Position numbers and translations under genes: made by a program. Below, piece by piece: positions 20,218 through 48,071 of a DNA stretch of 64,000 bases (within the stretch, counting starts at the first letter, position 1; every line of letters starts with the position of its first letter). The DNA lies in the NCBI GenBank assembly GCA_018648865.1, contig JABGQH010000011.1, positions 24,842 through 88,841 on the forward strand. Reading direction: 5' to 3'. The notes beneath the pieces are model-generated. The model made no database searches, was not told the DNA's origin, and saw only the letters and a list, made by a program, of their open reading frames with translations. The DNA comes from Candidatus Peregrinibacteria bacterium (GTDB lineage: Bacteria; Patescibacteriota; Gracilibacteria; Peribacterales; Peribacteraceae).

Positions 20218-20292
20218 TGGCTGGGGAGGAGGGATTCGAACCCCCGAATGCATGGACCAAAACCATGTGCCTTACCACTTGGCGACTCCCCA
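20218..20292 (-). tRNA. tRNA-Gln (anticodon UUG), CCA encoded
   Basis: Hand-folded cloverleaf: acceptor UGGGGAG/CUCCCCA, anticodon loop UUUUGGU, T-arm GGGGG-UUCGAAU-CCCUC, discriminator G. Confidence 0.9.
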
Positions 20293-22640: not shown

Positions 22641-23180
22641 TTATTGTTTACACATTTCCCAAAGTCCTTTATTCCCCTCTTTTGCTAAATCCTCCAATTG
22701 CTCATAAATTTCTGCACGGGGGTGAGTAAACCATTCATAATTCTCTACCAAACCTTCCTGAATTAAGAGTGCTCCGATATCCTCTCCAGAAAGCTCTAAA
22801 TACATTAATAATCGCCCATATTTATCTCTTTTATCATCTGATCCACGTTCAAGAGAGACATATTCATTCAAAACTAATTCAGATAAACGATCAGTTGCCT
22901 CATTAAAGTAACACTCCTCTTTTTCTGGTGCGTCTATTCCTACTATTCTAACGTGTTCCTCTGTAAATGAATTAGGCTTAACAACAACTGTATCGCCATC
23001 TATAACCCTAGAAACAGGGCCAACAAGAGCTACGGTAACAGGTTGTTGATCAGCAGTTTCATCTATTTTAATTGGAACAGAGTTGTCATTATCTCTTGAA
23101 TAAATCAGAGCTCCATTCACTAATAAAACGAATACGAAAATGCCGAATATGATGAATATTTTAAACTTGTTCATTAGCAA
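22641..23180 (-). CDS. membrane-anchored or secreted thermonuclease (staphylococcal nuclease, SNase family)
   Basis: N-terminal TM or signal helix, then VIDGDTVVV, VRIVGIDAPE and YGRLLMYL motifs. Confidence 0.85.
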   Translation of the reverse strand: MLMNKFKIFIIFGIFVFVLLVNGALIYSRDNDNSVPIKIDETADQQPVTVALVGPVSRVIDGDTVVVKPNSFTEEHVRIVGIDAPEKEECYFNEATDRLSELVLNEYVSLERGSDDKRDKYGRLLMYLELSGEDIGALLIQEGLVENYEWFTHPRAEIYEQLEDLAKEGNKGLWEMCKQ

Positions 23181-24188: not shown

Positions 24189-27100
24189 ATGCAGAATATT
24201 CTCCTTATTTTCCAAAGTAGTCCAATGCTACCTAAATCTCTTTGTTCCACAAAGTTCGCTCTTATATTCGCAGCAGCTCTGGTAACTGTTAGTGTGCCAT
24301 TTGCAGTATTCGGTCAACAGTTCAGCCCAAATGTAGATTTGAGTGTCCAGATTCAAGGTCCTAGTGGATCTAGTGTTAATGCTGGTAGTACAATTTCTTA
24401 TACATATACAGCAAATAATAGTGGTCCAGACTCAGCAATGGATGTAACTGTCACGGGTAATATTCCAAACGGACTTAGTTATAATTCAGCACAAACAAGC
24501 AATGATTGTGTTTTAAACGGACAGCAAATTCACTGTCATACACTTTCTATGCAATCAAATAGTACGAAACAATACACTGTTTCATTTGATGTTACTGCTA
24601 GCCCATCATTTTGTAATCAAACGATATCTAACGCTGTAAGTATTTCTACATCCAGTACAGAGACTAATCCTACAAACAATCAAAGTAATACTACTTACCA
24701 CACTGTGCACTGCGCACCAGTAGAAGCAGATATGGAGATTACAAAAGTTGCATCCCCTACTGTTTTAATAAGCGGAATTGTTTATTATGAATTAACTGTA
24801 AAAAATAAAGGACCAGCAAATGCTACAAATATTGTTGTAACAGATACAGTGCCAACTGGACTTGCATTCGACTCAGGAAACAGTGATTCAAGCTGTTTTT
24901 TGCAAGGCAACAGTGTTAAATGTACTGCAAATAGCTTGAATAATAACTCTATAAAAGTATTTAACATTGCCTTTACCATTAGTGACCAAGAATCATGTGG
25001 AGAAGTAATATTAAATAGAGCATCTGTAGAAGCAGATCAAAACGATCCTGTTTCTAATAACAACACTAGCAATTTTGTTTACACAACAATCTTGTGTGAA
25101 AAGGCAGATCTATCCATCACTAAGAGTGGACCAAGTACAGTAGATGCAGGTGGAACAATCTTGTACACATTAACCGCAACCAATAACGGACCAGCAGAGG
25201 GAGAAAGTATTACAGTATCTGATCCTGTACCAAATGGACTTACCTTTAATGCTGCGCAAAGCAGCTCTAATTGCGTATTAAACAGCTATGATTCTGTAGT
25301 TCACTGTAATAGTTTTAGTTTAAACGCGTTGCAAAGCAAAACTATAAACATTGCATTTGATGTTCCAGAAAATGGTTTCTGTAGCTCTACTATTTACAAT
25401 AGTGGAACTGTTTCTGGTCAGTCTACTGACCTAAACCCAAGCAATAATCAAAGTAATACTGTTAGTACAGTTGTTGAATGTGAAGGTGAGCCAGAACTAT
25501 CTATTTCTAAAACAGACGGCAGAACAACAGTAAACGCAGGGGAAAGCCTAACCTACGAAATAACAGTAACTAATCACTCAAACATAGAAGCTACAGGTGT
25601 AGATATATTAGATACGTTGCCAAGCAATGTAGTTCTTATGAAAATTGATGGAAACCTAGTATCACCTACTGGAACAACAGTTACATGGGATAATCAAACT
25701 ATCCCTGCAAACCAATCAAAGATATACACCATTACTGTTGGAGTAGATTCAAATACTCCTGACCAAACTGTTCTAACAAATACGGTTCAAATAACAAATG
25801 GACCAACTGCTATAGATACAACAACCGTACTAAATGGGAATAGCGAAATGGGATGTATAGAAATTGTGAAAGAGACATTTAATACAGAGGGGAATCTGAT
25901 TTCACCTGTTGCACAATTTACTTTTCTACTTAATGGAGGAGCTCAAACAACAGTAAATAATAGTAATGGAGAAGCAATGTTTCTAAATGTACCTGCTGGA
26001 CTACACACAGTTACAGAGATTGTACCAAACAACTGGGAACAGTTGTCTGTTACTCCAACAAATGGAGAAGTAGTTGTGAGTGTTGGAAACAATTGTTCTG
26101 CTGTTTATTTCAAAAATAAACAAGTAATTGACGTCGACCCTACATTCTCTATTTCTAAAACAGATAATAGAACTACAGCAGAAATTGGAGACGTACTCTC
26201 TTATCAAATTTCAGTTACAAATACATCAAATGTGACTGCTACAGGAGTAACTATAGAAGACACTCTACCATTAGAATTAACGCTAGAAACAACAAGTGGT
26301 AATGCTAATTTGAATGGTCAAATAATTACTTGGACTGATCTATCTTTCAGTACAGGAGAAACAAAAATATTCACAATTACTGCATCTGTAAAATCCAATA
26401 TTAATGATGGAGTAGTAATTCTAAACCAAGCAAGAGTAGTGGATGGACCATCTACTACTGATACCACAACTGTGGTATCAGAAGGAGAAGCAGATCTAAG
26501 TATTTCTAAAACAGATAATAGATCTACAGTAGAAAATGGAGAGACTCTAAACTACATAATTACTATTACTAATAACTCATCTATAGATGCAAATAGCGTA
26601 GAAATAAAAGACACTCTACCGAATGACACAACTTACGTTAGTTCATCTAATGGAGGATCAGCGAATGGGCACATAATCACATGGGACCAGGTTTCAATTT
26701 CTGCCAATTCATCTGTTCAACTAAGTGTTAATGCAAGTGTTAATAGCAATACAAGCAATGGAACTATACTACTTAACACTGTTCAAATTGTTGGTGGAAA
26801 CAGTGCAACAGATTCAACAACTGTAACCAGCAACACAACAAACGATGTAACAATAGATATCACAGATCAAACTGATCCAGTTAGGCCAAGTGATGTGTTC
26901 TGTTACTCAATACGTGTAACTAACTTAAATAGCAATCCAGTAGTAGATGCTACTGTAACTCAAACATTAGATTCTCAGACCTCTTATACTTCATCTACAG
27001 ATGGAGGAAGCCATAGCAGTGGGTTGATTACATGGGATAATGTAGATATTTCTGGAACAGGCACAAAAACACTAAACTCTTGTGTCCGTGTAGACAGCAA

Positions 27101-28112
27101 TGCGGATGATGATGATATCCTGAATTCTAATGCATACATCCTAAGCAAATCAGACAGTGAAACAACTAGAGTTGATGATGACGATGATGACGAAGGAGAA
27201 TGTAGAATTGTATCTATAGAAGATGATCCAGATCCAGTTGAGCCAGGAGAAATATTTGAATACACCATTAAAATCAGAAATGAATCTAATGATGATGAGG
27301 AATACACGATTACAGCTTTCTTAGACAGTGATACTACTTATCTATCATCTAGCCACGGCGGAGACGATGTAAGCAGACGAGAGATCGAATGGGACGACTT
27401 TGATATAGATAGTGATGATACAGAAACAGTTAGAATTACTGTAAGAATGGATAACGATATAGAGGAAGATGAAACAGTAAGAATCCGAGTAACCTGTGAA
27501 GATGACAATGAAACCGAAACTACCAGAGTAGAAGGAGGAGGAACAAGCGACGGAGACGCTCATCTAAGAGTGGATAAATCAGCAAATAGAGACGAAGCAA
27601 AACCAGGTGACACCGTTTTCTACACAATCACAGTTAGAAACGATAGTGACGAAGCAGCTAGAAACGTTACAGTAAGTGATAGATTCACTGCTGGGTCCAT
27701 ATCTATAGAAGATAATGGCAATGGAAGTAGCGTAGGAAATGGAATTAACTGGAGGATACCAATCCTAAATGTAAATGACTCTAGAACGTTCACATATAAA
27801 GTAAAAGTAGGAAGAGACATGAAACACGGCCAATTAATCATAAATACTGTAAGGGTTAGCAGCAGCGACTTAGACAGAGATGCAACTGATACAGAAGAAG
27901 TACGAGTAATTACAGATCTACCTCAAACTGGAATATCTGGATTCTTCTCTTCTTGGAAAAAAGCAAATTCATTCTTAAAGCCATCTTCGCATAGAATTAC
28001 TACTCCTGTAGCGCAATCAGGCACTAATGGAGCAGCTGGAATCAGCTTAACAAGCCTAATGTCTATTGGACTATTGATTGGAGGTATAGCTGGAAAGAAG
28101 ATATTTCTGTAG
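24189..28112 (+). CDS. LPQTG-anchored surface protein with DUF11-type repeats and a Cna-B-like domain
   Basis: 1307 aa with a signal peptide and multiple DUF11-like modules (..ITKSGP...Y.LT..NNGP...V.D..P.GL). A prealbumin or Cna-B-like segment is present (GCIEIVKETFNTEG...). The C-terminus has an acidic region, LPQTG at 27918-27932, then a hydrophobic helix and KKIFL. Confidence 0.9.
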   Translation: MQNILLIFQSSPMLPKSLCSTKFALIFAAALVTVSVPFAVFGQQFSPNVDLSVQIQGPSGSSVNAGSTISYTYTANNSGPDSAMDVTVTGNIPNGLSYNSAQTSNDCVLNGQQIHCHTLSMQSNSTKQYTVSFDVTASPSFCNQTISNAVSISTSSTETNPTNNQSNTTYHTVHCAPVEADMEITKVASPTVLISGIVYYELTVKNKGPANATNIVVTDTVPTGLAFDSGNSDSSCFLQGNSVKCTANSLNNNSIKVFNIAFTISDQESCGEVILNRASVEADQNDPVSNNNTSNFVYTTILCEKADLSITKSGPSTVDAGGTILYTLTATNNGPAEGESITVSDPVPNGLTFNAAQSSSNCVLNSYDSVVHCNSFSLNALQSKTINIAFDVPENGFCSSTIYNSGTVSGQSTDLNPSNNQSNTVSTVVECEGEPELSISKTDGRTTVNAGESLTYEITVTNHSNIEATGVDILDTLPSNVVLMKIDGNLVSPTGTTVTWDNQTIPANQSKIYTITVGVDSNTPDQTVLTNTVQITNGPTAIDTTTVLNGNSEMGCIEIVKETFNTEGNLISPVAQFTFLLNGGAQTTVNNSNGEAMFLNVPAGLHTVTEIVPNNWEQLSVTPTNGEVVVSVGNNCSAVYFKNKQVIDVDPTFSISKTDNRTTAEIGDVLSYQISVTNTSNVTATGVTIEDTLPLELTLETTSGNANLNGQIITWTDLSFSTGETKIFTITASVKSNINDGVVILNQARVVDGPSTTDTTTVVSEGEADLSISKTDNRSTVENGETLNYIITITNNSSIDANSVEIKDTLPNDTTYVSSSNGGSANGHIITWDQVSISANSSVQLSVNASVNSNTSNGTILLNTVQIVGGNSATDSTTVTSNTTNDVTIDITDQTDPVRPSDVFCYSIRVTNLNSNPVVDATVTQTLDSQTSYTSSTDGGSHSSGLITWDNVDISGTGTKTLNSCVRVDSNADDDDILNSNAYILSKSDSETTRVDDDDDDEGECRIVSIEDDPDPVEPGEIFEYTIKIRNESNDDEEYTITAFLDSDTTYLSSSHGGDDVSRREIEWDDFDIDSDDTETVRITVRMDNDIEEDETVRIRVTCEDDNETETTRVEGGGTSDGDAHLRVDKSANRDEAKPGDTVFYTITVRNDSDEAARNVTVSDRFTAGSISIEDNGNGSSVGNGINWRIPILNVNDSRTFTYKVKVGRDMKHGQLIINTVRVSSSDLDRDATDTEEVRVITDLPQTGISGFFSSWKKANSFLKPSSHRITTPVAQSGTNGAAGISLTSLMSIGLLIGGIAGKKIFL
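27918..28112 (+). other. sortase-type sorting signal with long spacer (protein 1)
   Basis: LPQTG is followed by about 33 mostly polar residues, then the hydrophobic segment and a basic tail. Confidence 0.6.
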
Positions 28113-28239: not shown

Positions 28240-31200
28240 ATGTTCATATATAAGAAGAAACTCGTAGCAATCGCAGCATTATCCATGCTAATCACACAAA
28301 GTGGTGTTTCTGCGCTGTTACCGACCGTAGAAAACATCGTTATTCCAACTGCTAATGCATGTGGAAATCATGGCGATAAACAATGTTCAGATGGAATTGA
28401 TAATGATGGAGACGGTTATTCTGATTATAAACCAGGAGGACCAACTAAAACCAAAGATGTAACTGTGAATACTAAACATAGTTGGTATGTAGGAGAAATG
28501 AGTGTCTCATTTGATGATATAGTGACTGTGAGTGATATTTCAGGTCAGTTTACATATTGGAAAAACCAACAACATTGGTATCAATGTGACGCTGGAGATG
28601 ATGGAAGCTATACACTTCATCACCCAGGAACAGCAAATGTGCATGGAGTGTTCTTTAATAAATATGGAATCAAAATTAGTGAACATTATATAAAGGATCT
28701 ACAGCAAGGGATAGAAACTCCTTATGGAGCAGTAAAAATTAAATTCTTCTTCCCGGACACTATCCATTACGATAACAGTGGGTCATGCGATTTTACCGTA
28801 GAAGTAGATAAGGCTGACAATGGAGACCCAGATTGCACAGATGAACACGATGATGATGAAAGTGGATTTGCAGGTAATAACGAATGCTCAGACGGAGTAG
28901 ATAATGACAATGACGGAGCAGTAGATTACCCTGAAGATTTTAGTTGTGATGGGCCAGATGATGACGATGAATCAAACCCTGAATCTGAGTGTCAGGATGG
29001 CATTGATAATGATAACGATGGGTTAGAAGACGAAGACGACCCAGGATGCTCTAATGCACAAGATGATAACGAAGGAGACGGAACAGCAGAATACCAAGAC
29101 GGGATAGATAACGACGGAGACGGAGCTACAGACTATCCTGATGACATTAGTTGTACATCACCAACAGATAATGATGAATCAGTTCCAAGAGCAGAATGTG
29201 AAGATGGAATTGATAACGACAATGACGGATTTGTAGACTGGGACGGAGTTAATTGCAGTGCTAGTTGTACTCAAGGAAGAATATACGATACAAATGCAGG
29301 AGACCCAAAGGCACGAAATCTTAGTGAAACTAAAATAGTTGATATTACATGTGACGGAAAAATAAATGCATACTTCACAGACGATAATGCTTTTGTTCGT
29401 GTAATAAAACCAAGCGGAAGCAAACAGATGCTTATTGCATGTGATAACGAAGCTATTGATCATTGTGCAGGCACAAGTTGCTGTGCATCATGGATTCCTC
29501 AATGGGGAGCAATGGTTTGTTCTAGGGACAATACAGAACTAGCCCAAATATTTTCTCATTACGGGCAAGGAGGCGTAAAAGGATGCCCTGGAAATGATAT
29601 TAAAAATCACAAGATTCAAGTATACGCAGGAGACAAAATCGAAGTATATTATGCTTCTTTTGCAGCAGGTAACGGATGGGTAAATTTCACTCCTACATCT
29701 ACGTGTACAAATGGAGACCCAGACCCAGGATGTGATGGACCAAATGATGATGACGAAGAAGAATATGTTTGCTCAGATGGAATAGATAATGATGGAGACG
29801 GATTAACCGATTTTCCTGATGATCCAGGTTGTGATGACGAAGAAGACACAACCGAAACAGATAGATATGGACCAGAGTGTGATAACGGAGAAGACGACGA
29901 TAATGATGGGCAAACAGATTATCCTGAGGACACAAACTGCACAGACCCAACAGATGATGACGAAGACGAAGCAGAATGTGAGGATGGAATTGATAATGAT
30001 AATGACGGTGCAACTGATTTCCCAGATGATTTCGGATGTGACTCCCCTACAGATGATGATGAAGGGAATCCTCTAGCCGCATGTCATGATGGAAATGACA
30101 ACGACAATGATGGACTTACAGATATGAACGACCCTGGATGTAGCAGCCCTCAAGATAACGATGAGAGTGATGCAACAACGCAGTGCCAAGATGGAATAGA
30201 TAATGACAACGATGGAGCAACTGATTTCCCAGATGATTTCGGATGTGACTCGCCTACAGATGATGACGAAAGTGATCCTCTAGCTCAGTGTCAGGATGGA
30301 ATAGATAATGACAATGATGGACTTACAGATATGAACGATCCTGGATGTTCTAGCCCACAAGACAATGACGAAAGTGATGGGACTAGTGAATGTCAGGATG
30401 GAGATGATAATGATGGAGATGGATTTGTAGACTTCCCAGATGATCCTAGTTGTACATCTGAACAGGATGATGATGAATCACCATTTGATGCAGTTAGCGA
30501 CTTAAGAATAGGTCTAAATGGCCCTACATCTGTGTTTAGAACACAGCAAATTACTTACGAAGCAGTTGCAACAAACGACGGACCATCTAAAGCAGACAAT
30601 GTTACTGTTTCGTTCCCTATCCCAAATGGAATGTTCTTTGATAGTGGAGCATCACATGGATCATGTGTGCAGAATGGAGTAAACGTTCTATGTAACAGTT
30701 TTTCTTTACTGAAAAATGAAAGCAAAACTATAAATATAGTTTTCACAGTAACTAACCAAACACAATGCTCATCTACAGCATCTGCTCAGACAAGTGTTGC
30801 TACATCTTCTACAGATCCAAACCCTAGCAATAACACAAGTAACACAGTTCAAACTCAAATCGAGTGTTCTGAGTGTCAGGATGGAATTGATAACGATAAC
30901 GATGGAGCAACTGATTTCCCTGATGACTTTAGTTGCAGCTCAATAATCGATGACGATGAAAGTGATCCTCTAGCCGCATGTCAGGATGGAAATGACAATG
31001 ACAATGATGGATTAACAGATATGAACGATCCTGGATGTTCTAGCCCTCAAGACAACGATGAGAGTGATGGGACTAGTGAATGTCAGGATGGGATAGATAA
31101 TGATGGAGATATCGTAATAGATATGAACGATCCTGGATGTAGCTCACCTCAAGATGATGACGAGAGTGATGCAACAACAGAGTGCCAAGATAATATTGAT

Positions 31201-34200
31201 AATGACAATGATGGGGCATCAGACTATCCAAATGATTTTGGATGTGATTCTCTAATTGATAATGATGAAAGTGATCCTCTAGCCGCATGTCAGGATGGAA
31301 ATGATAATGACAATGATGGATTAACAGATATGAACGATCCTGGATGTTCTAGTCCTCAAGATAATGATGAAAGTGATGGGACTAGTGAATGTCAGGATGG
31401 AATAGATAATGATGGAGATATCGTAATTGACATGAACGATCCTGGATGTAGCTCACCTCAAGATGACGACGAGAGCGATGCAACAACAGAGTGCCAAGAT
31501 AATATTGATAATGACAACGATGGAGCATCTGATTATCCAAATGATTTTGGATGTGATTCTCTAATTGATAATGATGAAAGTGATCCTCTAGCCGCATGTC
31601 AGGATGGAAATGATAATGACAATGATGGATTAACAGATATGAACGATCCTGGATGTTCTAGTCCTCAAGATAATGATGAAAGTGATGGGACAAGCCAGTG
31701 TCAGGATGGAATTGATAACGATCAAGACGGTTTAACAGATATGAACGATCCTGGATGTTCTAGCCCACAAGATGACGACGAGAGTGATGGAACTAGTGAA
31801 TGTCAGGATGGAATAGATAATGACAATGATGGGGCATCAGACTATCCAAATGATTTTGGATGTGATTCTCCTCAAGATAATGATGAAAGTGATCCTCTAG
31901 CTCAATGTCAGGATGGAAATGACAATGACAATGATGGATTAACAGATATGAACGATCCTGGATGTTCTAGCCCTCAAGACAACGATGAGAGTGATGGGAC
32001 TAGTGAATGTCAGGATGGGATAGATAATGATGGAGATATCGTAATAGATATGAACGATCCTGGATGTAGCTCACCTCAAGATGATGACGAGAGTGATGCA
32101 ACAACAGAGTGCCAAGATAATATTGATAATGACAATGATGGGGCATCAGACTATCCAAATGATTTTGGATGTGATTCTCTAATTGATAATGATGAAAGTG
32201 ATCCTCTAGCCGCATGTCAGGATGGAAATGATAATGACAATGATGGATTAACAGATATGAACGATCCTGGATGTTCTAGCCCTCAAGACAACGATGAGAG
32301 TGATGGGACTAGTGAATGTCAGGATGGGATAGATAATGACCAAGATGGTGCTACAGACTATCCAAATGATTTCAGTTGTGATTCTCCTCAGGATGATGAT
32401 GAAACAGGACCAAAATCAGGATGCCAAGACGGTATTGATAATGACAATGATGGATTTATTGATATGAACGATCCTGGCTGTACAGATCCTCAGGATAATG
32501 ATGAAACAAATGTGTTTAAATGCTCAGATGGAATAGATAATGACAATGATGGAGCTACCGATTTCCCAGATGACTTTAGTTGTTCATCTTTATACGATGA
32601 CGATGAAACAAATCCAAAATCTGAATGTCAGGATGGAATTGATAATGATGGAGACAACGTTATAGATAGCAATGATCCAGGATGTAGCTCTAATCAAGAT
32701 AATTTCGAAGGAGATGCTACAACCGAGTGTCAAGACGGCATAGATAACGACCAAGACGGCGCTACAGACTATCCAAATGACTTTAGTTGTAGTTCACCAA
32801 TAGATGATGATGAAACAGGGCCAAAATCAGGATGCCAAGATGGAATAGATAATGACAATGATGGATTAACAGATATGAACGATCCAGGTTGTACAGATCC
32901 TCAAGATGATGATGAGAGTGATGCAACAAGCCAATGCCAAGATGGAATTGATAATGACAATGATGGAGCAACTGATTATCCATATGACTTTAGTTGTGAT
33001 TCACCTCAAGACGATAACGAAAATGATCCACTATCCGGATGCCAAGATGGAATTGATAATGACAATGATGGATTAACAGATATGAACGATCCAGGTTGTA
33101 CAGATCCTCAAGACAATGACGAATACAATCTAGTTCAACATGATCTATTTATTACAAAGAGTGGACCAGTAAGCGTACAACAAGGAAATACAGTTCTATA
33201 TACGCTTACAGCTACTAATTTAGGTCCACAAACAGCTACTAATGTTCATATTATTGATGAAATCCCAACAGGATTAACATTAGATGCTGTAAACAGTTCA
33301 CCAAACTGTGTAGTAATTGGAAGTAATGTAATCTGTAATAATTTCTCGTTACAAGACAACGAAAGCAGAACAGTAAATATTGCATTCCAAGTAGGGGTTG
33401 GTGCAGCCTGTGGTAGCAGTATAAAGAATGTAGGAATAGTAAATACATCAGCAACAGATCCAAACCCATCTAACAATCGAATGGAAGTATTTACAGATGT
33501 TACATGTCAACAGACATATCAATGTAGTGATGGAATAGATAATGATGGCGATGGAGTAATTGATTATCCAAGTGATCCTGATTGCACCTCACCAACAGAT
33601 GACGATGAAAGCCCAAGTGTACAACCATCTCTTTCAATTCAGAAGACAGATGGTAGAACAACTGCAGCACCAGGAGATGTGCTTACATACACCATAACAA
33701 TACAGAATAATTCTTCTGTAGATGCATATGGAGTTGATGTTAGTGACAACCTTCCACCAGAAGTTGAATTTATTTCAGCAACTTACTCACCAGTGCTTAG
33801 TACACTATCTAGTGGAAATATGATTCTACTGTGGTCTGGAATAAACGTACCAGCACACCAAAGTACAATCCTTACAGTTACTGCAAGAGTACGAAATAAT
33901 GTTCAAAATGGAGCGCATATTGTAAATGCCGCAAGGGTTAACAACGGAATTAATACTTATGATTCAACAACTGTAGAGATAGCTCCACAAACAGGATGTG
34001 TTGAAGTGTATGTAAATGCACTCAACTCACAAAACAATCCTGTATCCCCTACTCCTGCATTTGGATTCAAGCTAGAAAATGGAGACAGCTTAACTAATGA
34101 TTCAGGCGGATACGCACGATTTGGTAATGTAAGCGTTGGATCTCACACAGTGTCATATATTCCAACACTAGGATGGCAGCAAAATAATGTGTCTCCTACT

Positions 34201-36000
34201 AATGGAATTGTATTCGTACAATCTAATAGCGCATGTGCACAAGCTACATTCACAATAAAAGAAGACTTTGGAGTTCAGCAGCCTAGTTTCTCTGTTTCTA
34301 AAACAGATAATGCTGGAACAATTCAACCAGGACAAACTCTTACATATTCAATCGAAGTAACAAACACATCTAGTGTACCAGCAACATCTGTAAGAATTGT
34401 TGACCAACTACCTGCAGAACTAACATTTATATCTGCAGCAAATAACGGAACATATATAAATGGAGAAGTACTTTGGGAGAACATAACTCTTCAACCAAAT
34501 CAAAGTATTACCCTACAGGTAACAACGCAGGTAAAACCTAATGTGTCACCAGGAACAGTAATTCTAAATATTGCACAAGTTATAGGTAATCCTAACTTTG
34601 TACTTGTAATGGCAGGCGTAGGCAGCAATTTTGCAGCTGACGCAGCACCAATGAGATACGAAGCTCCAGTTCTAGTAAGTGCTCAAGACACAACAACTGT
34701 TAGAACTCCAGATATCCTAGTAGAAGATGAACCTAGACCATCTAGCGATTCAACGATTACATTAAGAGACTCTGTTGACCCAGTTGAATTAGGAGAATCC
34801 TTCACATACACAATTGCAATAACAAATATGAGTGATTCTGCAATTAACGGAGAAACAGTAGATCAAGAAATAGATCCAAACCTACTAGTTAGCTCTGTAT
34901 CTGATAGTGGTAGAGCTGGGAAAGGAACAATAAAATGGGAAAATATTTCAATCCCTGCAAACACAACTAGAACACTATCGGCTACTGTTAGTGTAGAACC
35001 TACAGCACAACAAAATTCAACTCTACTTAGTTCTGTAACTATGAACGAACTAAGTGACACAGAAAGCACTGTAATAAATAACTCAAATACATCTTCATGC
35101 CAAACTGAAGATGTAACCATTACAAGTGTTTCAGATACATCTGACCCAGTCGCACCAGGACAAGAGGTCCAATACTTCATAACATTAGAAAACTCATGTT
35201 CAGAAACAACTACACAAATGGTAACTGCATGGTTAGATGGAAAAAGTACATTTGTTTCTGCTTCAGATAATGGTTCATCCGAAGGATCAATTGTTAAATG
35301 GAATAATTTAAATATTCAACCAGGCACAACGCAATTACGTGTAACTGCAAAAGTTAGCGAAAGCGTTACATCTGGACAACTTCAATTTAGCGCAAAGATT
35401 CTAGGTAGCGAAAGGTCAGAAACAACTCGTATTGAACAGAGTGGAAATATTGCAAACGAAGTAAAATTACAAGTTCAACAAAGTGCAAATACCCAAGAAG
35501 CACAACCAGGAAATTCAATTAAATATATTGTTACTGTTACCAATCCATCTAATGACGCAGCAAACAATGTGATTGTAGAAAATAGGATTTCCGCAGGAAC
35601 TGTAAGTATTACAGATACTAATGGAGGAACAAATATTGGAAACGGTATTAAGTGGACTATACCTACATTACAACCATTAGAATCAAAATCATTCAGCTAC
35701 ACAGTACGTATAGATAATTCCATGAGGCACGGACAAACTGTGAGGAACACAGTAACTGCAATAAGTGACAATAGCGGAGTACATGCAGTAGACACGGAAG
35801 AAGTAAGAATACTTACCGTTCTACCTCAAACAGGAATAACAAGCTATAAGTCTCTAAGTGCAACACTCTCACCAAGCATGAAGAATCAAAAAGTGACTGC
35901 TGCATCTATCGCAGGTACAACAGTATTCATACTTTGGACATCATTGATTTCTATTGGTATGACAGCAGGAGGAGTAGTAGGAAGAAGGTTCTGGCTATAA
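28240..36000 (+). CDS. giant LPQTG-anchored surface protein with about 35 Cys-bracketed DNDNDG repeats plus DUF11 and Cna-B-like domains
   Basis: 2586-aa uninterrupted ORF with a signal peptide. The repeating module is C.DG.DND.DG..D....C.....D.DE. DUF11 modules are interspersed. The C-terminal region is paralogous to the 24189 protein. LPQTG lies at 35821-35835, followed by a TM helix and RRFWL. Confidence 0.9.
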   Translation: MFIYKKKLVAIAALSMLITQSGVSALLPTVENIVIPTANACGNHGDKQCSDGIDNDGDGYSDYKPGGPTKTKDVTVNTKHSWYVGEMSVSFDDIVTVSDISGQFTYWKNQQHWYQCDAGDDGSYTLHHPGTANVHGVFFNKYGIKISEHYIKDLQQGIETPYGAVKIKFFFPDTIHYDNSGSCDFTVEVDKADNGDPDCTDEHDDDESGFAGNNECSDGVDNDNDGAVDYPEDFSCDGPDDDDESNPESECQDGIDNDNDGLEDEDDPGCSNAQDDNEGDGTAEYQDGIDNDGDGATDYPDDISCTSPTDNDESVPRAECEDGIDNDNDGFVDWDGVNCSASCTQGRIYDTNAGDPKARNLSETKIVDITCDGKINAYFTDDNAFVRVIKPSGSKQMLIACDNEAIDHCAGTSCCASWIPQWGAMVCSRDNTELAQIFSHYGQGGVKGCPGNDIKNHKIQVYAGDKIEVYYASFAAGNGWVNFTPTSTCTNGDPDPGCDGPNDDDEEEYVCSDGIDNDGDGLTDFPDDPGCDDEEDTTETDRYGPECDNGEDDDNDGQTDYPEDTNCTDPTDDDEDEAECEDGIDNDNDGATDFPDDFGCDSPTDDDEGNPLAACHDGNDNDNDGLTDMNDPGCSSPQDNDESDATTQCQDGIDNDNDGATDFPDDFGCDSPTDDDESDPLAQCQDGIDNDNDGLTDMNDPGCSSPQDNDESDGTSECQDGDDNDGDGFVDFPDDPSCTSEQDDDESPFDAVSDLRIGLNGPTSVFRTQQITYEAVATNDGPSKADNVTVSFPIPNGMFFDSGASHGSCVQNGVNVLCNSFSLLKNESKTINIVFTVTNQTQCSSTASAQTSVATSSTDPNPSNNTSNTVQTQIECSECQDGIDNDNDGATDFPDDFSCSSIIDDDESDPLAACQDGNDNDNDGLTDMNDPGCSSPQDNDESDGTSECQDGIDNDGDIVIDMNDPGCSSPQDDDESDATTECQDNIDNDNDGASDYPNDFGCDSLIDNDESDPLAACQDGNDNDNDGLTDMNDPGCSSPQDNDESDGTSECQDGIDNDGDIVIDMNDPGCSSPQDDDESDATTECQDNIDNDNDGASDYPNDFGCDSLIDNDESDPLAACQDGNDNDNDGLTDMNDPGCSSPQDNDESDGTSQCQDGIDNDQDGLTDMNDPGCSSPQDDDESDGTSECQDGIDNDNDGASDYPNDFGCDSPQDNDESDPLAQCQDGNDNDNDGLTDMNDPGCSSPQDNDESDGTSECQDGIDNDGDIVIDMNDPGCSSPQDDDESDATTECQDNIDNDNDGASDYPNDFGCDSLIDNDESDPLAACQDGNDNDNDGLTDMNDPGCSSPQDNDESDGTSECQDGIDNDQDGATDYPNDFSCDSPQDDDETGPKSGCQDGIDNDNDGFIDMNDPGCTDPQDNDETNVFKCSDGIDNDNDGATDFPDDFSCSSLYDDDETNPKSECQDGIDNDGDNVIDSNDPGCSSNQDNFEGDATTECQDGIDNDQDGATDYPNDFSCSSPIDDDETGPKSGCQDGIDNDNDGLTDMNDPGCTDPQDDDESDATSQCQDGIDNDNDGATDYPYDFSCDSPQDDNENDPLSGCQDGIDNDNDGLTDMNDPGCTDPQDNDEYNLVQHDLFITKSGPVSVQQGNTVLYTLTATNLGPQTATNVHIIDEIPTGLTLDAVNSSPNCVVIGSNVICNNFSLQDNESRTVNIAFQVGVGAACGSSIKNVGIVNTSATDPNPSNNRMEVFTDVTCQQTYQCSDGIDNDGDGVIDYPSDPDCTSPTDDDESPSVQPSLSIQKTDGRTTAAPGDVLTYTITIQNNSSVDAYGVDVSDNLPPEVEFISATYSPVLSTLSSGNMILLWSGINVPAHQSTILTVTARVRNNVQNGAHIVNAARVNNGINTYDSTTVEIAPQTGCVEVYVNALNSQNNPVSPTPAFGFKLENGDSLTNDSGGYARFGNVSVGSHTVSYIPTLGWQQNNVSPTNGIVFVQSNSACAQATFTIKEDFGVQQPSFSVSKTDNAGTIQPGQTLTYSIEVTNTSSVPATSVRIVDQLPAELTFISAANNGTYINGEVLWENITLQPNQSITLQVTTQVKPNVSPGTVILNIAQVIGNPNFVLVMAGVGSNFAADAAPMRYEAPVLVSAQDTTTVRTPDILVEDEPRPSSDSTITLRDSVDPVELGESFTYTIAITNMSDSAINGETVDQEIDPNLLVSSVSDSGRAGKGTIKWENISIPANTTRTLSATVSVEPTAQQNSTLLSSVTMNELSDTESTVINNSNTSSCQTEDVTITSVSDTSDPVAPGQEVQYFITLENSCSETTTQMVTAWLDGKSTFVSASDNGSSEGSIVKWNNLNIQPGTTQLRVTAKVSESVTSGQLQFSAKILGSERSETTRIEQSGNIANEVKLQVQQSANTQEAQPGNSIKYIVTVTNPSNDAANNVIVENRISAGTVSITDTNGGTNIGNGIKWTIPTLQPLESKSFSYTVRIDNSMRHGQTVRNTVTAISDNSGVHAVDTEEVRILTVLPQTGITSYKSLSATLSPSMKNQKVTAASIAGTTVFILWTSLISIGMTAGGVVGRRFWL
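30961..32196 (+). repeat. four tandem 309-bp near-identical super-repeats inside the giant gene, plus a partial fifth to about 32330
   Basis: Unit starts at 30961, 31270, 31579, 31888 and 32197. Units 1 and 4 differ at only a few positions. Each unit encodes three DNDNDG modules (103 aa). Confidence 0.9.
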
Positions 36001-36540
36001 AGATAAATTTTCTTTAACCAGATCAATAATCTGATTCTCAGAAGCGCTTAAAACCTTCTCATCCTCTAAACTAGGAATACTTAGCACCCACGCGGCGAGA
36101 TCCTCGCCGTGTGTTGGTGTACCTATACCAATTTTTATCCTCTTAAAGCCATCACCAAAAACTTCATGAATTGATCTTAATCCATTATGTGTGCCAGGTC
36201 CTCCAGATTTTCTGTATCTAACTTCTCCAAGGGGTAAATCTATATCATCACAAATAACAATTAATTTTGTAGCAGGATCCAATTTGTAATAATCAATAAT
36301 TTTATGAACTGAGTTAGCAGACAGATTCATATAAGTATTAGGCCTAATTAACATAACTGAATCCGTTCCTATTTTAGCCTCGACTATCGCTCCTAAAAAT
36401 TTCTGAGACTCCTTCCACTCATTATCCGAAGCAAATTCATCTGCCAATAATTGCAAGGCTCTAAATCCAACATTGTGCCTAGTCCTCTCATATTGAGCTC
36501 CAGGATTTCCTAGTCCGACGATTATATAATCAGGTTTCAT
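35995..36540 (-). CDS. pth: peptidyl-tRNA hydrolase
   Basis: IIVGLGNPGAQYERTRHNVGF and the overall Pth pattern. Confidence 0.95.
   Translation of the reverse strand: MKPDYIIVGLGNPGAQYERTRHNVGFRALQLLADEFASDNEWKESQKFLGAIVEAKIGTDSVMLIRPNTYMNLSANSVHKIIDYYKLDPATKLIVICDDIDLPLGEVRYRKSGGPGTHNGLRSIHEVFGDGFKRIKIGIGTPTHGEDLAAWVLSIPSLEDEKVLSASENQIIDLVKENLSL

Positions 36541-47993: not shown

Positions 47994-48071
<78 letters not shown>

What the first reader, a model, noticed from the sequence alone, without database searches (positions are those of the whole stretch)
28240..36000. Giant 2586-aa wall-anchored protein built from about 35 Cys-bracketed DNDNDG modules
**What the sequence shows.** I count about 35 copies of a 30-36-aa module, C-(Q/S/E)-D-G-(I/N)-D-N-D-(N/G/Q)-D-G-x-x-D-...-C-...-D-(D/N)-D-E. 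Two flavours alternate:
- ..DGATD(F/Y)P(D/N)DF(G/S)C(D/S)SP.DDDE..
- ..DGLTDMNDPGC(S/T)(S/D)PQDNDESD..

**Related families.** The D-x-D-x-D-G core resembles calcium-binding loops of thrombospondin type 3 repeats. It also resembles the bacterial Cys-rich putative metal-binding motif (C.DG.DNDCDG). Here the internal Cys is consistently Asn, and each module keeps only the two bracketing Cys.

**Architecture.** The arrays are interrupted by DUF11-type modules, a Cna-B-like domain and two unique Cys-rich beta-type domains (about 28440-28830 and 29240-29700). The protein ends in LPQTG.

**Interpretation.** For a small, AT-rich genome this single gene is a very large investment. It is a plausible host-attachment or metal-sequestering surface fibre.
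Basis: partly seen in the sequence, partly recalled or inferred. Interest (0 to 1): 0.7.

Follow-up and report, generated by a model that had tools for sequence, protein, structure and literature searches.

The report
Calcium-loop stalk protein of a Peregrinibacterium
This is a real 2586-residue cell-surface fibre protein of an uncultured Peregrinibacteria (CPR) bacterium, with a stalk of 35 small acidic, disulfide-closed modules that probably bind calcium; the module type, the protein and its general kind were already catalogued, so it is a large but fairly ordinary example.

Summary
ORF 28240-36000 (+) encodes 2586 aa with 35 acidic modules: 34 regex hits against 0.0025 expected by chance, plus one copy with Tyr in place of the first Cys.

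The module is not new. It scores 390 bits against NCBIfam NF033662 ("acidic double-disulfide repeat"). The same two-Cys form occurs in about 1000 modules of 120 homologs from Peregrinibacteria, Bdellovibrionota, DPANN archaea and Myxococcota. The exact protein is GenBank MBT3293147.1.

The closest solved structure is the teneurin C-rich domain (7PLP; E 0.0012), which binds three Ca2+. Seven of its nine side-chain Ca2+ ligands and its Cys1-Cys3 disulfide align with conserved module positions. Pfam TSP_3 and MopE models do not hit.

The rest of the protein comprises:
- a signal peptide;
- two tip domains nested in split modules (A is an orphan; B is a rare β-sandwich);
- seven CLIPPER/DUF11 domains;
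- one SpaA/CnaB-like domain;
- LPQTG, a spacer, a transmembrane segment and a basic tail.

Best reading: a fibrillar adhesin-like surface fibre with a Ca2+-stiffened stalk. Metal sequestration is unsupported.

The exact unit number and order are assembly-sensitive. A 375-bp exact repeat is present, and 9 of the 11 partial assemblies of this gene break inside the large array.

The parts
28240..36000 (+). Whole gene, 2586 aa (274.9 kDa, net charge -456). Identical to GenBank MBT3293147.1, 'DUF11 domain-containing protein [Candidatus Peregrinibacteria bacterium]'.
28240..28314 (+). Probable Sec signal peptide (aa 1-25): KKK, then the hydrophobic stretch LVAIAALSMLI, then VSA.
   Evidence: Read from the sequence. 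No predictor was run; this is an inference.
28384..28425 (+). Head half of split module 1 (C49 plus the DNDGDG loop, with no closing Cys).
28426..28818 (+). Domain A (aa 63-193), an orphan tip domain nested inside module 1.
   Evidence: No Pfam hit and no word-indexed homolog. AlphaFold2 (AF2) confidence (pLDDT) is about 30. One weak 33-aa match lies in the N-terminal tip domain of Peribacteria ORF L014.
28819..28860 (+). Closing half of split module 1 (NGDPDC199TDEHDDDE).
   Evidence: The same head / insert / DPxC..DxxE layout recurs in homologs.
28885..29268 (+). Four modules (aa 216, 251, 285, 320). The module at 285 has Tyr in place of C1. The module at 320 leads into domain B.
29269..29703 (+). 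Domain B (aa 344-488), a rare conserved Cys-rich β-sandwich. It is followed by the closing segment C489..C498-DGPNDDDE (29704-29766).
   Evidence: 11 relatives among 1.84 billion representatives. pLDDT is 82-98. No significant structural relative was found (best Foldseek E 0.08).
29770..30495 (+). Array 1: seven acidic modules (aa 511-752).
   Evidence: The AF2 model of aa 645-756 has pLDDT 81.
30496..30873 (+). CLIPPER/DUF11 domain 1.
   Evidence: 64.5 bits against a cut-off of 24.6
30874..33141 (+). Array 2: 22 acidic modules (aa 879-1634).
30944..32339 (+). Higher-order DNA repeat inside array 2: a 309-bp unit (three modules) in 4.5 copies at 90% identity. It contains a 375-bp exact repeat at an offset of 927 bp. 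This is the zone where other assemblies break.
33142..33519 (+). CLIPPER/DUF11 domain 2.
   Evidence: 70.6 bits
33523..33624 (+). Isolated single module (C1762..C1782) between CLIPPER domains. With exactly two Cys, it argues for an intramodule C1-C2 disulfide.
33625..33975 (+). CLIPPER/DUF11 domain 3.
   Evidence: 62.7 bits
33976..34275 (+). SpaA / prealbumin-like (CnaB-type) domain.
   Evidence: This copy gives no hit on its own. 17 of 20 aligned relatives hit Pfam SpaA. The family profile finds Cna-type adhesins and RrgA in PDB.
34279..35820 (+). CLIPPER/DUF11 domains 4-7, tested as segments 34279-34614, 34615-35109, 35110-35469 and 35470-35820.
   Evidence: 67.3, 31.9, 31.0 and 49.9 bits. 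TIGR04226, the isopeptide-forming domain model, scores 46 bits in 3 stretches.
35821..35997 (+). C-terminal sorting region: LPQTG, a spacer of about 25 aa, a hydrophobic segment, then RRFWL.
   Evidence: It is conserved in Peribacteria relatives. No LPXTG-anchor HMM hit was found.
24189..28112 (+). Upstream paralogous surface gene (1307 aa): nine DUF11/CLIPPER domains, a SpaA-like domain and the same LPQTG-type tail, but no acidic modules.

Best explanation
The gene encodes a Sec-exported, C-terminally anchored fibrillar surface protein of a Peregrinibacteria (CPR/Patescibacteria) bacterium.

**The stalk.** It is built from 35 copies of a 34-35-aa acidic module of family NF033662, seven CLIPPER/DUF11 Ig-like domains and one SpaA-like domain. 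About three of the CLIPPER domains probably carry an isopeptide bond.

**The module.** Each module is a loop closed by one disulfide (C1-C2). Its conserved Asp and Asn residues (D3, D6, N7, D8, D10, D14, D18, plus the invariant E29 of the tail) wrap two or three Ca2+ ions, as in the teneurin C-rich domain and thrombospondin type-3 repeats. With Ca2+ bound, the otherwise structure-less, extremely acidic chain would become a stiff, protease-resistant rod.

**The tip.** At the distal end, two globular domains (A and B) are nested inside split modules. They are the candidate ligand-binding heads, most plausibly for attachment to a host or partner cell.

**Length variation.** The near-identical 309-bp DNA units would let the stalk length change by recombination.

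**What is shown and what is inferred.**
- Shown: the architecture, family membership, taxonomy, the conserved residue pattern and the repeat structure.
- Inferred: Ca2+ binding, disulfide pairing, sortase anchoring, adhesion and length variation.
For: **The module.**
- NF033662 scores 390 bits in 30 stretches.
- The two-Cys module is the family norm: 978 modules in 120 homologs, and C1 and C2 co-occur in 980 of 1028 modules.
- Isolated single modules carry exactly C1 and C2.

**The teneurin link.**
- The teneurin-4 C-rich domain 7PLP is the top PDB hit: E 0.023 with one sequence, 0.18 with a self-derived profile and 0.0012 with a diverse profile. It aligns from Cys to Cys.
- Four further teneurin sequences, from five PDB entries, appear in the same list.
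- The crystal structure shows three Ca2+ held by D840, D843, N844, D845, D847, D851 and D854, plus a C838-C857 disulfide. These map onto invariant or near-invariant module columns.

**Structure prediction.** The AlphaFold2 (AF2) model of three modules has confidence (pLDDT) 81 yet almost no secondary structure.

**Other domains and layout.**
- Seven CLIPPER domains each pass the Pfam cut-off.
[quoted passage not shown] TIGR04226 scores 46 bits.
- The SpaA-like domain is supported at family level.
- Domain B sits directly behind the signal peptide in three relatives. Inserts inside split modules recur 31 times.
- LPQTG plus a transmembrane segment plus a basic tail is conserved in Peribacteria giants.

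**Organism and literature.**
- Taxonomy was assigned from the purine-synthesis protein PurL and from GenBank names.
- Peribacteria are reported to encode a sortase A and large Cys-rich extracellular proteins proposed to mediate attachment.

**DNA repeat.**
Against: - No experiment exists for any NF033662 protein; a literature search on the family's name found no paper.
- The teneurin match is short (about 21 aa), with a borderline E-value.
- Foldseek found no structural match for the module model.
- Pfam TSP_3 and MopE models do not hit.
- No known adhesive domain was detected. Domain A is an orphan and domain B has no structural relative.
- No sortase signature was found in the 64-kb window, and a motif-only scan found no sortase-like ORF in the 77 related loci.
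- No LPXTG-anchor HMM hit was found.
- The 25-35-aa spacer after LPQTG is atypical.
- The two full-length assemblies have the same length, so length variation has not been observed.
Confidence: 0.6

Rival explanations
1. It is a spacer, shield or 'periscope'-type envelope protein. On this reading the fibre does not bind a specific ligand. Its variable-length, strongly negative stalk sets the distance or charge of the cell surface, or holds up other structures, and the tip domains are structural caps.
For: - The near-identical 309-bp units and the 375-bp exact repeat are the DNA signature of length-variable stalks.
- No known adhesive domain was found.
- The adjacent paralog has a stalk only.
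- Net charge is -456.
Against: - Domain B is conserved and always lies at the distal tip in relatives, which suggests a specific function.
- Tip domains differ between otherwise similar Peribacteria proteins, as expected for binding heads.
- No length variant has been seen yet.
Confidence: 0.2
2. It is a cation sink or mineral nucleator. On this reading the acidic arrays mainly sequester or buffer Ca2+ or other metals at the cell surface, or nucleate carbonate or phosphate minerals.
For: - There are 539 Asp+Glu residues, and the large array holds 244 acidic against 4 basic residues.
- By analogy with teneurin, each module could hold 2-3 Ca2+, which gives about 70-100 ions per molecule.
Against: - The acidic residues sit at fixed, invariant positions of a disulfide-closed loop. 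That is typical of structural sites, not of low-affinity polyanion binding.
- The modules are embedded in an adhesin-type layout with Ig-like stalk domains and a sorting signal.
- Their capacity is stoichiometric and small relative to environmental Ca2+.
- The MopE 'Cu-binding' model does not hit.
Confidence: 0.1
3. It is an assembly artefact. On this reading the array is inflated or chimeric, and the real gene has far fewer units.
For: - The 375-bp exact repeat is longer than a typical short read.
- 9 of 11 partial assemblies break inside array 2.
- The 16 differences between the two full-length versions all lie in one repeat unit, which fits either mis-joined repeats or gene conversion.
Against: - Most units differ from each other; 28 of the 35 module sequences are distinct.
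- Two assemblies give the same 2586 aa.
- The N-terminal piece (aa 1-1065) and the C-terminal piece (aa 1102-2586) from other assemblies nearly tile the whole protein.
- Related genomes carry arrays of 20-31 modules.
- Collapse of repeats, giving too few units, is the more likely assembly error.
Confidence: 0.05

Closest known systems
NCBIfam NF033662, 'acidic double-disulfide repeat-containing protein'
   Same: The modules match this curated repeat model far above its cut-off (390 bits against 41, in 30 stretches). This is the family the modules belong to.
   Different: The family is computational only; a search for its name found no paper. Its name implies four Cys, whereas each 34-35-aa unit here and in 120 homologs has two. 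The HMM consensus could not be inspected.
Teneurin C-rich domain (human Ten4, PDB 7PLP; EMBO J 2022, PMC9058538)
   Same: It is the top solved-structure match, aligned from C1 to C2. C838-C857 corresponds to C1-C2. The Ca2+ ligands D840, D843, N844, D845, D847, D851 and D854 fall on conserved module columns. The core also resembles the Monosiga and diatom sequences listed by Tucker et al..
   Different: Teneurin has a single copy with six Cys (bonded 1-3, 2-5, 4-6) and a conotoxin-like C-terminal half. Here there are two Cys, an aromatic or Met residue replaces C852, a DxDE tail with an invariant Glu is added, and copies are tandem, up to 22 in a row. The E-value is borderline. No YD/Rhs repeats co-occur in the sampled prokaryotic proteins.
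Thrombospondin type 3 repeats (Pfam TSP_3, PF02412; TSP-1, PDB 1UX6)
   Same: Both have a DxDxDGxxDxxD Ca2+-loop motif with flanking Cys. Teneurin Ca2+ sites I and II are reported to match type-3 repeats. Some homologs are annotated as TSP3 proteins.
   Different: No Pfam TSP_3 hit was found for this protein or for isolated modules. No thrombospondin appears among the 60 PDB profile hits listed.
MopE-type 'putative metal-binding motif' (Pfam PF11617, C.DG.DNDCDG)
   Same: The N-terminal half of the motif is the same, and Tucker et al. aligned it with the teneurin core.
   Different: No HMM hit was found. The internal Cys is Asn, Gly or Gln here. No evidence of Cu binding was found.
CLIPPER-stalk fibrillar adhesins (for example Acinetobacter silvestris B9T28_05395, PDB 9IFR; Protein Sci 2025, PMC12617251)
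   Same: Both have a signal peptide, an N-terminal head, a tandem CLIPPER/DUF11 stalk and a C-terminal anchor.
   Different: Here most of the stalk length is acidic Ca-loop modules rather than Ig domains. The head domains belong to no known adhesive family. The anchor is LPQTG-type rather than OmpA-like.
Large Cys-rich extracellular proteins of Peribacteria (Anantharaman et al. 2016, PMC4736985)
   Same: Same phylum. These are large, secreted, Cys-rich proteins proposed to mediate attachment; a sortase A is present in those genomes, and strain variation is noted.
   Different: That paper describes them only in general terms, as weakly similar to Myxococcus Cys-rich repeats. It gives no module definition and no Ca2+-loop or teneurin comparison.

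Membership tests
NCBIfam NF033662 acid_disulf_rpt | HMM score at or above the curated cut-off (41 bits) | tested here: met
   390.1 bits, E 8e-120, 30 stretches. A three-module fragment alone scores 47.3 bits.
NCBIfam NF033662 acid_disulf_rpt | Two disulfides (four Cys) per repeat, as the family name implies | not testable with these tools
   The HMM consensus cannot be viewed. Each 34-35-aa unit has two Cys, both here and in 980 of 1028 homolog modules.
Pfam TSP_3 (PF02412), thrombospondin type 3 repeat | HMM hit | tested here: not met
   No hit at E<=0.01 on the whole protein or at E<=10 on one or three isolated modules.
Pfam TSP_3 (PF02412), thrombospondin type 3 repeat | DxDxDGxxDxxD calcium loop | tested here: met
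   D6, D8, D10, D14 and D18 are invariant, and G11 nearly so, in the module alignments.
Pfam PF11617, Cu-binding_MopE motif | HMM hit and an internal Cys in DNDCDG | tested here: not met
   No hit. Module position 9 is never Cys (Cys frequency 0).
Teneurin C-rich domain | Ca2+-ligand residues of sites I and II, and the Cys1-Cys3 disulfide | tested here: met
   The Cys-to-Cys alignment places D840, D843, N844, D845, D847, D851, D854, C838 and C857 on conserved module columns.
Teneurin C-rich domain | Six Cys bonded 1-3, 2-5, 4-6, with the consensus ExxCx(D/N)xxDx(D/E)xDxxxDCxxx(D/E)CCxxxxCxxxxxC | tested here: not met
   Only the equivalents of Cys 1 and Cys 3 are present. C852 is replaced by F, Y or M, and there is no CC or downstream Cys.
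Teneurin C-rich domain | Statistically significant sequence or structure similarity | tested here: inconclusive
   E is 0.0012 with a diverse profile, 0.023 with one sequence and 0.18 with a self-derived profile. Foldseek returned no hits for the module model.
CLIPPER / DUF11 (PF01345) | HMM hit above the gathering score (24.6 bits) | tested here: met
   284 bits in 7 stretches on the whole protein. The seven segments score 31-71 bits individually.
CLIPPER / DUF11 (PF01345) | Intramolecular Lys-Asn isopeptide bond | tested here: inconclusive
   TIGR04226, the isopeptide-forming domain model, scores 46 bits against a cut-off of 30, in 3 stretches. By eye, three of the seven domains keep the Lys of the I-x-K first strand. 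The bond itself cannot be tested here.
Sortase (LPXTG) substrate | LPXTG motif followed by a hydrophobic segment and a basic tail at the C-terminus | tested here: met
   LPQTG at nt 35821, then a spacer of about 25 aa, then TTVFILWTSLISIGMTAGGVVG, then RRFWL. The spacer is unusually long but is conserved in Peribacteria relatives.
Sortase (LPXTG) substrate | Match to an LPXTG-anchor HMM | tested here: not met
   No NCBIfam hit at E<=10 on the C-terminal 73 or 78 aa.
Sortase (LPXTG) substrate | A sortase gene in the same genome | tested here: inconclusive
   No TLxTC-type sortase signature was found in the 64-kb window; ten neighbouring ORFs scanned against Pfam gave no sortase, and the remaining window ORFs were not scanned with an HMM. 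A motif-only scan of the 77 related loci found no convincing sortase-like ORF. The rest of the genome was not available. Sortase A is reported in Peribacteria genomes.
Fibrillar adhesin (head + repeat stalk + anchor) | A recognised adhesive head domain | tested here: not met
   Domains A and B match no Pfam family. Domain B has no significant structural relative.
Fibrillar adhesin (head + repeat stalk + anchor) | A tandem stalk of repeated domains in a long secreted protein | tested here: met
   35 modules, 7 CLIPPER domains and 1 SpaA-like domain.
Periscope-type length-variable surface protein | Highly identical DNA tandem repeats | tested here: met
   A 309-bp unit in 4.5 copies at 90% identity, and a 375-bp exact repeat.
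Periscope-type length-variable surface protein | Repeat-number variation between strains | tested here: inconclusive
   The only two full-length versions are both 2586 aa. All others are truncated by contig ends.

The most novel reading that the evidence does not exclude
The prokaryotic acidic module (NF033662) may be the ancestral, tandem-repeat form of the animal teneurin C-rich Ca2+-binding domain. Tucker et al. attributed that domain to a diatom or algal donor. The module would then be a portable Ca2+-and-disulfide 'clasp' with two uses: building rigid stalks, and holding inserted globular heads in the split-module layout seen around domains A and B. It may have spread by horizontal transfer among cell-attaching lineages, namely CPR bacteria, DPANN archaea, Bdellovibrionota and Myxococcota, as a shared kit for attaching to prey or hosts.
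Probability: 0.25. Interest if true: 0.55.

Novelty: new member of a known kind. Interest (0 to 1): 0.35.

Why it matters
- **Biology of CPR bacteria.** CPR bacteria are thought to live attached to other cells, and their large surface proteins are prime candidates for that contact. This gene gives a clean, dissectable example: a defined Ca2+-loop module, nested tip domains and isopeptide-type stalk domains.
- **A testable prediction.** The residue-by-residue match to the teneurin C-rich crystal structure turns "acidic Cys repeat of unknown function" into a concrete prediction: two or three Ca2+ ions and one C1-C2 disulfide per module.
- **Evolution.** The match raises the question of whether the teneurin domain has a prokaryotic source.
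- **Practical point.** Arrays of this kind routinely break short-read assemblies, so such proteins are under-counted and mostly deposited as fragments.

Tried and rejected
- **Pfam on modules.** Scans of the whole protein and of isolated modules, up to E 10, gave no TSP_3, MopE or EF-hand hit.
- **Foldseek on the module model.** The confident three-module model gave zero hits against PDB. I treat this as uninformative, because the model has almost no secondary structure.
- **Model coordinates.** They are not exposed, so Cys-Cys distances could not be measured. I used Cys co-occurrence and isolated modules instead.
- **Domain A.** No Pfam hit, no word-indexed homolog and a poor model. Only a 33-aa match in L014 was found.
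- **Domain B.** Its fold has only weak β-sandwich look-alikes: the Kex2/furin P-domain, CUB, and the C-terminal domain of Clostridium perfringens enterotoxin (C-CPE). All have E of at least 0.08, so I did not name a fold family.
- **Single-sequence PDB searches.** The SpaA-like and CLIPPER domains found nothing relevant. Only the family profile worked.
- **Genome scan with an alignment.** A single sequence was used instead.
- **Sortase.** No signature was found in the window or near relatives, and no LPXTG HMM hit was found.
- **YD/Rhs repeats.** None co-occur with modules in the sampled proteins and loci, so that support for the teneurin-origin idea is absent.
- **Artefact reading.** "Assembly artefact with far fewer units" was rejected.
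Full report
**1. Observation**

The ORF at 28240..36000 (+) is real, uninterrupted and 2586 aa long. The motif C.[DN][GN].D[ND]D.D occurs 34 times at spacings of 33-36 aa within the arrays. In 2000 composition-preserving shuffles the mean count was 0.0025 and the maximum 1. A 35th copy at aa 285 has Tyr instead of the first Cys.

The modules fall into five groups:
- one split module at aa 49;
- four at aa 216-343;
- seven at aa 511-752;
- 22 at aa 879-1634;
- one isolated module at aa 1762.

The protein is 16.2% Asp, has 94 Cys, weighs 274.9 kDa and has a net charge of -456.

The "two alternating flavours" description is only partly right. The centre of the big array is a three-module unit (A, B, and a variant B' lacking Gly11). 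This unit is 103 aa, or 309 bp, and is repeated 4.5 times at 90% DNA identity. It is flanked by A-B doublets of 207 bp.

**2. Reliability of the array**

The longest exact internal DNA repeat is 375 bp, at an offset of 927 bp.

The exact protein is in GenBank as MBT3293147.1, [quoted passage not shown]. Its 90%-identity cluster holds 14 members.
- Two are full length, both 2586 aa.
- One is a 390-aa C-terminal piece that is not marked partial.
- Eleven are marked partial.

N-terminal pieces end at aa 566, 926, about 977 and 1065. C-terminal pieces begin at aa 1102, 1208, 1227, 1229, 1302 and 1534. So assemblers usually break inside array 2.

The two full-length versions differ by 16 substitutions, all within aa 947-1008, which is one repeat unit. 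That pattern fits either gene conversion or mis-joined repeats.

The array is therefore real. 28 of the 35 module sequences are distinct, and partial pieces from other assemblies nearly tile the protein. However, the exact number and order of units in nt 30944-32339 need long reads.

**3. What the module is**

Pfam sees nothing in the modules, even in isolation at E up to 10.

NCBIfam gives a decisive answer: NF033662, "acidic double-disulfide repeat-containing protein", at 390 bits against a cut-off of 41, in 30 stretches. No paper mentions the family's name.

A search with the N-terminal 510 aa found 1648 proteins, the best 120 of which were examined. In those 120:
- 978 modules have the consensus CQDGIDNDGDGLIDFPDDPGCSSADDNDE;
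- the period is 32-37 aa;
- Cys occurs only at position 1 and at position 20 or 21;
- C1 and C2 co-occur in 980 of 1028 modules.

So the two-Cys form is the family norm, not a peculiarity of this gene.

Invariant columns across diverse sequences are C1, D6, D8, G11, D14, C21 and E29. D10 and D18 are at least 90% conserved.

**4. How the module probably works**

The best solved-structure match is the teneurin-4 C-rich domain (7PLP). Its E-value is 0.023 with one sequence, 0.18 with a profile of this protein's own modules and 0.0012 with a diverse 92-sequence profile. In every case it aligns from C1 to C2. Ten-m, two further Ten4 sequences and two Ten2 entries follow in the same list. EF-hand loops match only the DxDxDG core. 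No thrombospondin appears.

The 1.5 Å structure shows three Ca2+ ions coordinated by E835, D840, D843, N844, D845, D847, D851, D854 and D856. Sites I and II resemble thrombospondin type-3 repeats. There is a C838-C857 disulfide.

In the alignment, the teneurin residues map onto module positions as follows:

| Teneurin-4 | Module |
|---|---|
| C838 | C1 |
| D840 | D3 |
| D843 | D6 |
| N844 | N7 |
| D845 | D8 |
| D847 | D10 |
| D851 | D14 |
| D854 | D18 |
| C857 | C2 |

Seven of the nine side-chain ligands and the disulfide therefore fall on conserved module columns. Teneurin C852 is replaced by Phe, Tyr or Met. The invariant Glu of the DxDE tail has no teneurin counterpart and may complete a neighbouring site; this is my inference.

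Isolated single modules flanked by CLIPPER domains (aa 1762-1782 here, and one in P0122) contain exactly two Cys, which argues for the intramodule pair.

AlphaFold2 gives a confident model of three modules (confidence score, pLDDT, 81) with almost no helices or strands, as expected for ion-wrapped loops. Foldseek found nothing for it, which is uninformative for such a structure.

Tucker et al. had already aligned the teneurin core with diatom, Volvox and MopE motifs. The Monosiga and diatom cores (CNDGIDNDNDGLFDCEDPDC) are nearly identical to the module here.

**5. The rest of the protein**

- **N-terminus.** It looks like a Sec signal peptide, judged by eye.
- **Domain A (aa 63-193).** It is nested inside a split module: C49 and the Ca-loop come before it, and GDPDC199-TDEHDDDE after it. 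A motif scan flagged 31 modules whose Ca-loop lacks the nearby closing Cys (30 in homologs, plus this one). In most, an insert of 28-150 aa is followed by a closing Cys or a DPxC..DxxE tail; a few lie near a C-terminal membrane anchor instead.
- **Domain A relatives.** It has no Pfam hit, no word-indexed homolog and a poor model. Its only hint of a relative is the N-terminal tip domain of another Peribacteria protein.
- **Domain B (aa 344-488).** It is rare, with 11 relatives among 1.84 billion representatives. It folds confidently as a β-sandwich (pLDDT 82-98) and has no significant structural relative (best E 0.08). In P0122, P0123 and P0125 it sits directly behind the signal peptide, that is, at the distal tip.
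- **CLIPPER domains.** Seven segments each pass the DUF11/CLIPPER cut-off. CLIPPER is a CnaA-like domain, often isopeptide-bonded, that forms stalks of fibrillar adhesins. TIGR04226 scores above its cut-off for three stretches.
- **SpaA-like domain (aa 1913-2012).** It gives no hit alone. It belongs to a family repeated in Peribacteria loci, of which 17 of 20 members hit Pfam SpaA. The family profile finds Cna-type adhesins and RrgA in PDB.
- **C-terminus.** It is LPQTG, a spacer of about 25 aa, a hydrophobic segment and RRFWL. The same layout occurs in the upstream paralog and in other Peribacteria giants. It hits no LPXTG-anchor HMM. No sortase signature lies in the window, and a motif scan found none near relatives. 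Sortase A is reported for Peribacteria.

**6. Organism and context**

The window lies on a 214.5-kb metagenome scaffold. GC content is 33-41%. All named best hits of the purine-synthesis protein PurL are Peregrinibacteria, Peribacteraceae or Patescibacteria, at 60-70% identity.

Neighbouring genes are housekeeping: Pth, signal peptidase, NusG, MurJ and PurL. A nuclease, a β-helix protein and an MFS transporter are also nearby.

The upstream gene (24189-28112) is a 1307-aa protein with CLIPPER and SpaA-like domains, the same tail, and no acidic modules.

**7. How unusual is it?**

The 77 closest module loci in species-representative genomes are distributed as follows:

| Lineage | Loci |
|---|---|
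| Peregrinibacteria lineage | 33 |
| Bdellovibrionota | 17 |
| Nano-/Woesearchaeota | 7 |
| Methanosarcinales-labelled | 4 |
| Pseudomonadota | 4 |
| Deltaproteobacteria | 4 |
| Saccharibacteria | 2 |
| Patescibacteria | 2 |
| Myxococcota | 2 |
| Altimarinota | 1 |
| Unnamed | 1 |

This sample is biased towards the query. The best ORF per locus holds a median of 11 modules and up to 31. Peribacteria ORFs of 2300-3770 aa with 19-22 modules and an LPQTG- or FPQTG-type tail exist. This gene is therefore at the top of the known range, not outside it.

Large Cys-rich extracellular proteins and strain variation in them were already noted for Peribacteria.

**8. Verdict**

The finding is real and well described, but the module is a curated family and the protein is already deposited. 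The kind of protein, a large CPR surface protein or fibrillar adhesin with a CLIPPER stalk, is known.

What this analysis adds:
- the residue-level match to the teneurin C-rich Ca2+ domain;
- the intramodule disulfide inference;
- the split-module nesting of the tip domains;
- the evidence that the array breaks assemblies.

The best explanation is a Ca2+-stiffened attachment fibre (confidence 0.6). The rivals are a non-binding spacer or periscope protein (0.2), a cation sink (0.1) and an inflated assembly (0.05).

The most novel reading not excluded is that this prokaryotic module is the source of the teneurin C-rich domain and a shared clasp for cell-attaching microbes. It has no support from YD-repeat co-occurrence and remains speculative.

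Noticed in passing
window 29092-29094 (aa 285) and aa 305: One module has Tyr (one base away from Cys) in place of C1 but keeps C2 (C305), which leaves a formally unpaired Cys. Apart from a MopE-type DNDCDG motif in P0125 that the scan also flagged, this is the only acidic module of about 1000 with C2 but no C1. It could be a sequencing error, decay, or a free thiol for intermolecular bonding.
   Followed up: partly
window 24189-28112 (+): The adjacent 1307-aa paralog has nine DUF11/CLIPPER domains, a SpaA-like domain and the same LPQTG + spacer + TM + basic tail, but no acidic modules. It is found on 8 contigs in public data. The two genes form a tandem surface-protein pair.
   Followed up: partly
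window 35821-35997; loci L027, L055, L031, L016, L036, L024, L078: Peribacteria giant proteins share an unusual sorting signal: [LFI]PQTG, then a 25-35-aa spacer before the hydrophobic segment and basic tail. Variants read YFPQTG or IPQTG. No LPXTG-anchor HMM recognises it.
   Followed up: partly
window 35995-36000: The last six bases of the giant gene, including its stop codon, overlap the 3' end of the convergent peptidyl-tRNA hydrolase gene (35995-36540, minus strand).
   Followed up: no
loci L011, L015, L018, L028, L032, L040, L050 and others: Module-bearing proteins in loci labelled Bdellovibrionota, Pseudomonadota or unclassified bacterium end in a different conserved C-terminal domain (...LYA..RN....R...R.YF......R.D.....A...E..G...L..LPRFATECK). 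Some Peribacteria ones end in ...DRWRELWDWNW. This suggests lineage-specific anchoring or export modules.
   Followed up: no
homologs P0014, P0025, P0027, P0041, P0048, P0049, P0108 (N-termini): There is a recurrent cap layout: signal peptide, half-module (C.DG.DNDGDG..DAL.EL), a domain of about 110-145 aa ending in ..TC..K[LI]P[AT], then the module array. This cap domain differs from domains A and B.
   Followed up: no
window 13366-15624 (-): A 752-aa protein with a right-handed β-helix region (PF13229), possibly another secreted or surface protein.
   Followed up: no
window 22641-23180 (-): A staphylococcal-nuclease homolog (PF00565), about 1 kb upstream of the surface-gene pair.
   Followed up: no
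window 20221-20292 (-) and 47997-48070 (-): Two tRNA genes are the only Rfam matches in the window.
   Followed up: no
P0261 versus window aa 947-1008 (nt 31078-31263): All 16 differences between the two full-length versions fall in one B'-A repeat unit. They convert it towards the sequence of other units (for example DGDIVID to DNDGLTD). This fits gene conversion between repeats or an assembly mix-up.
   Followed up: partly
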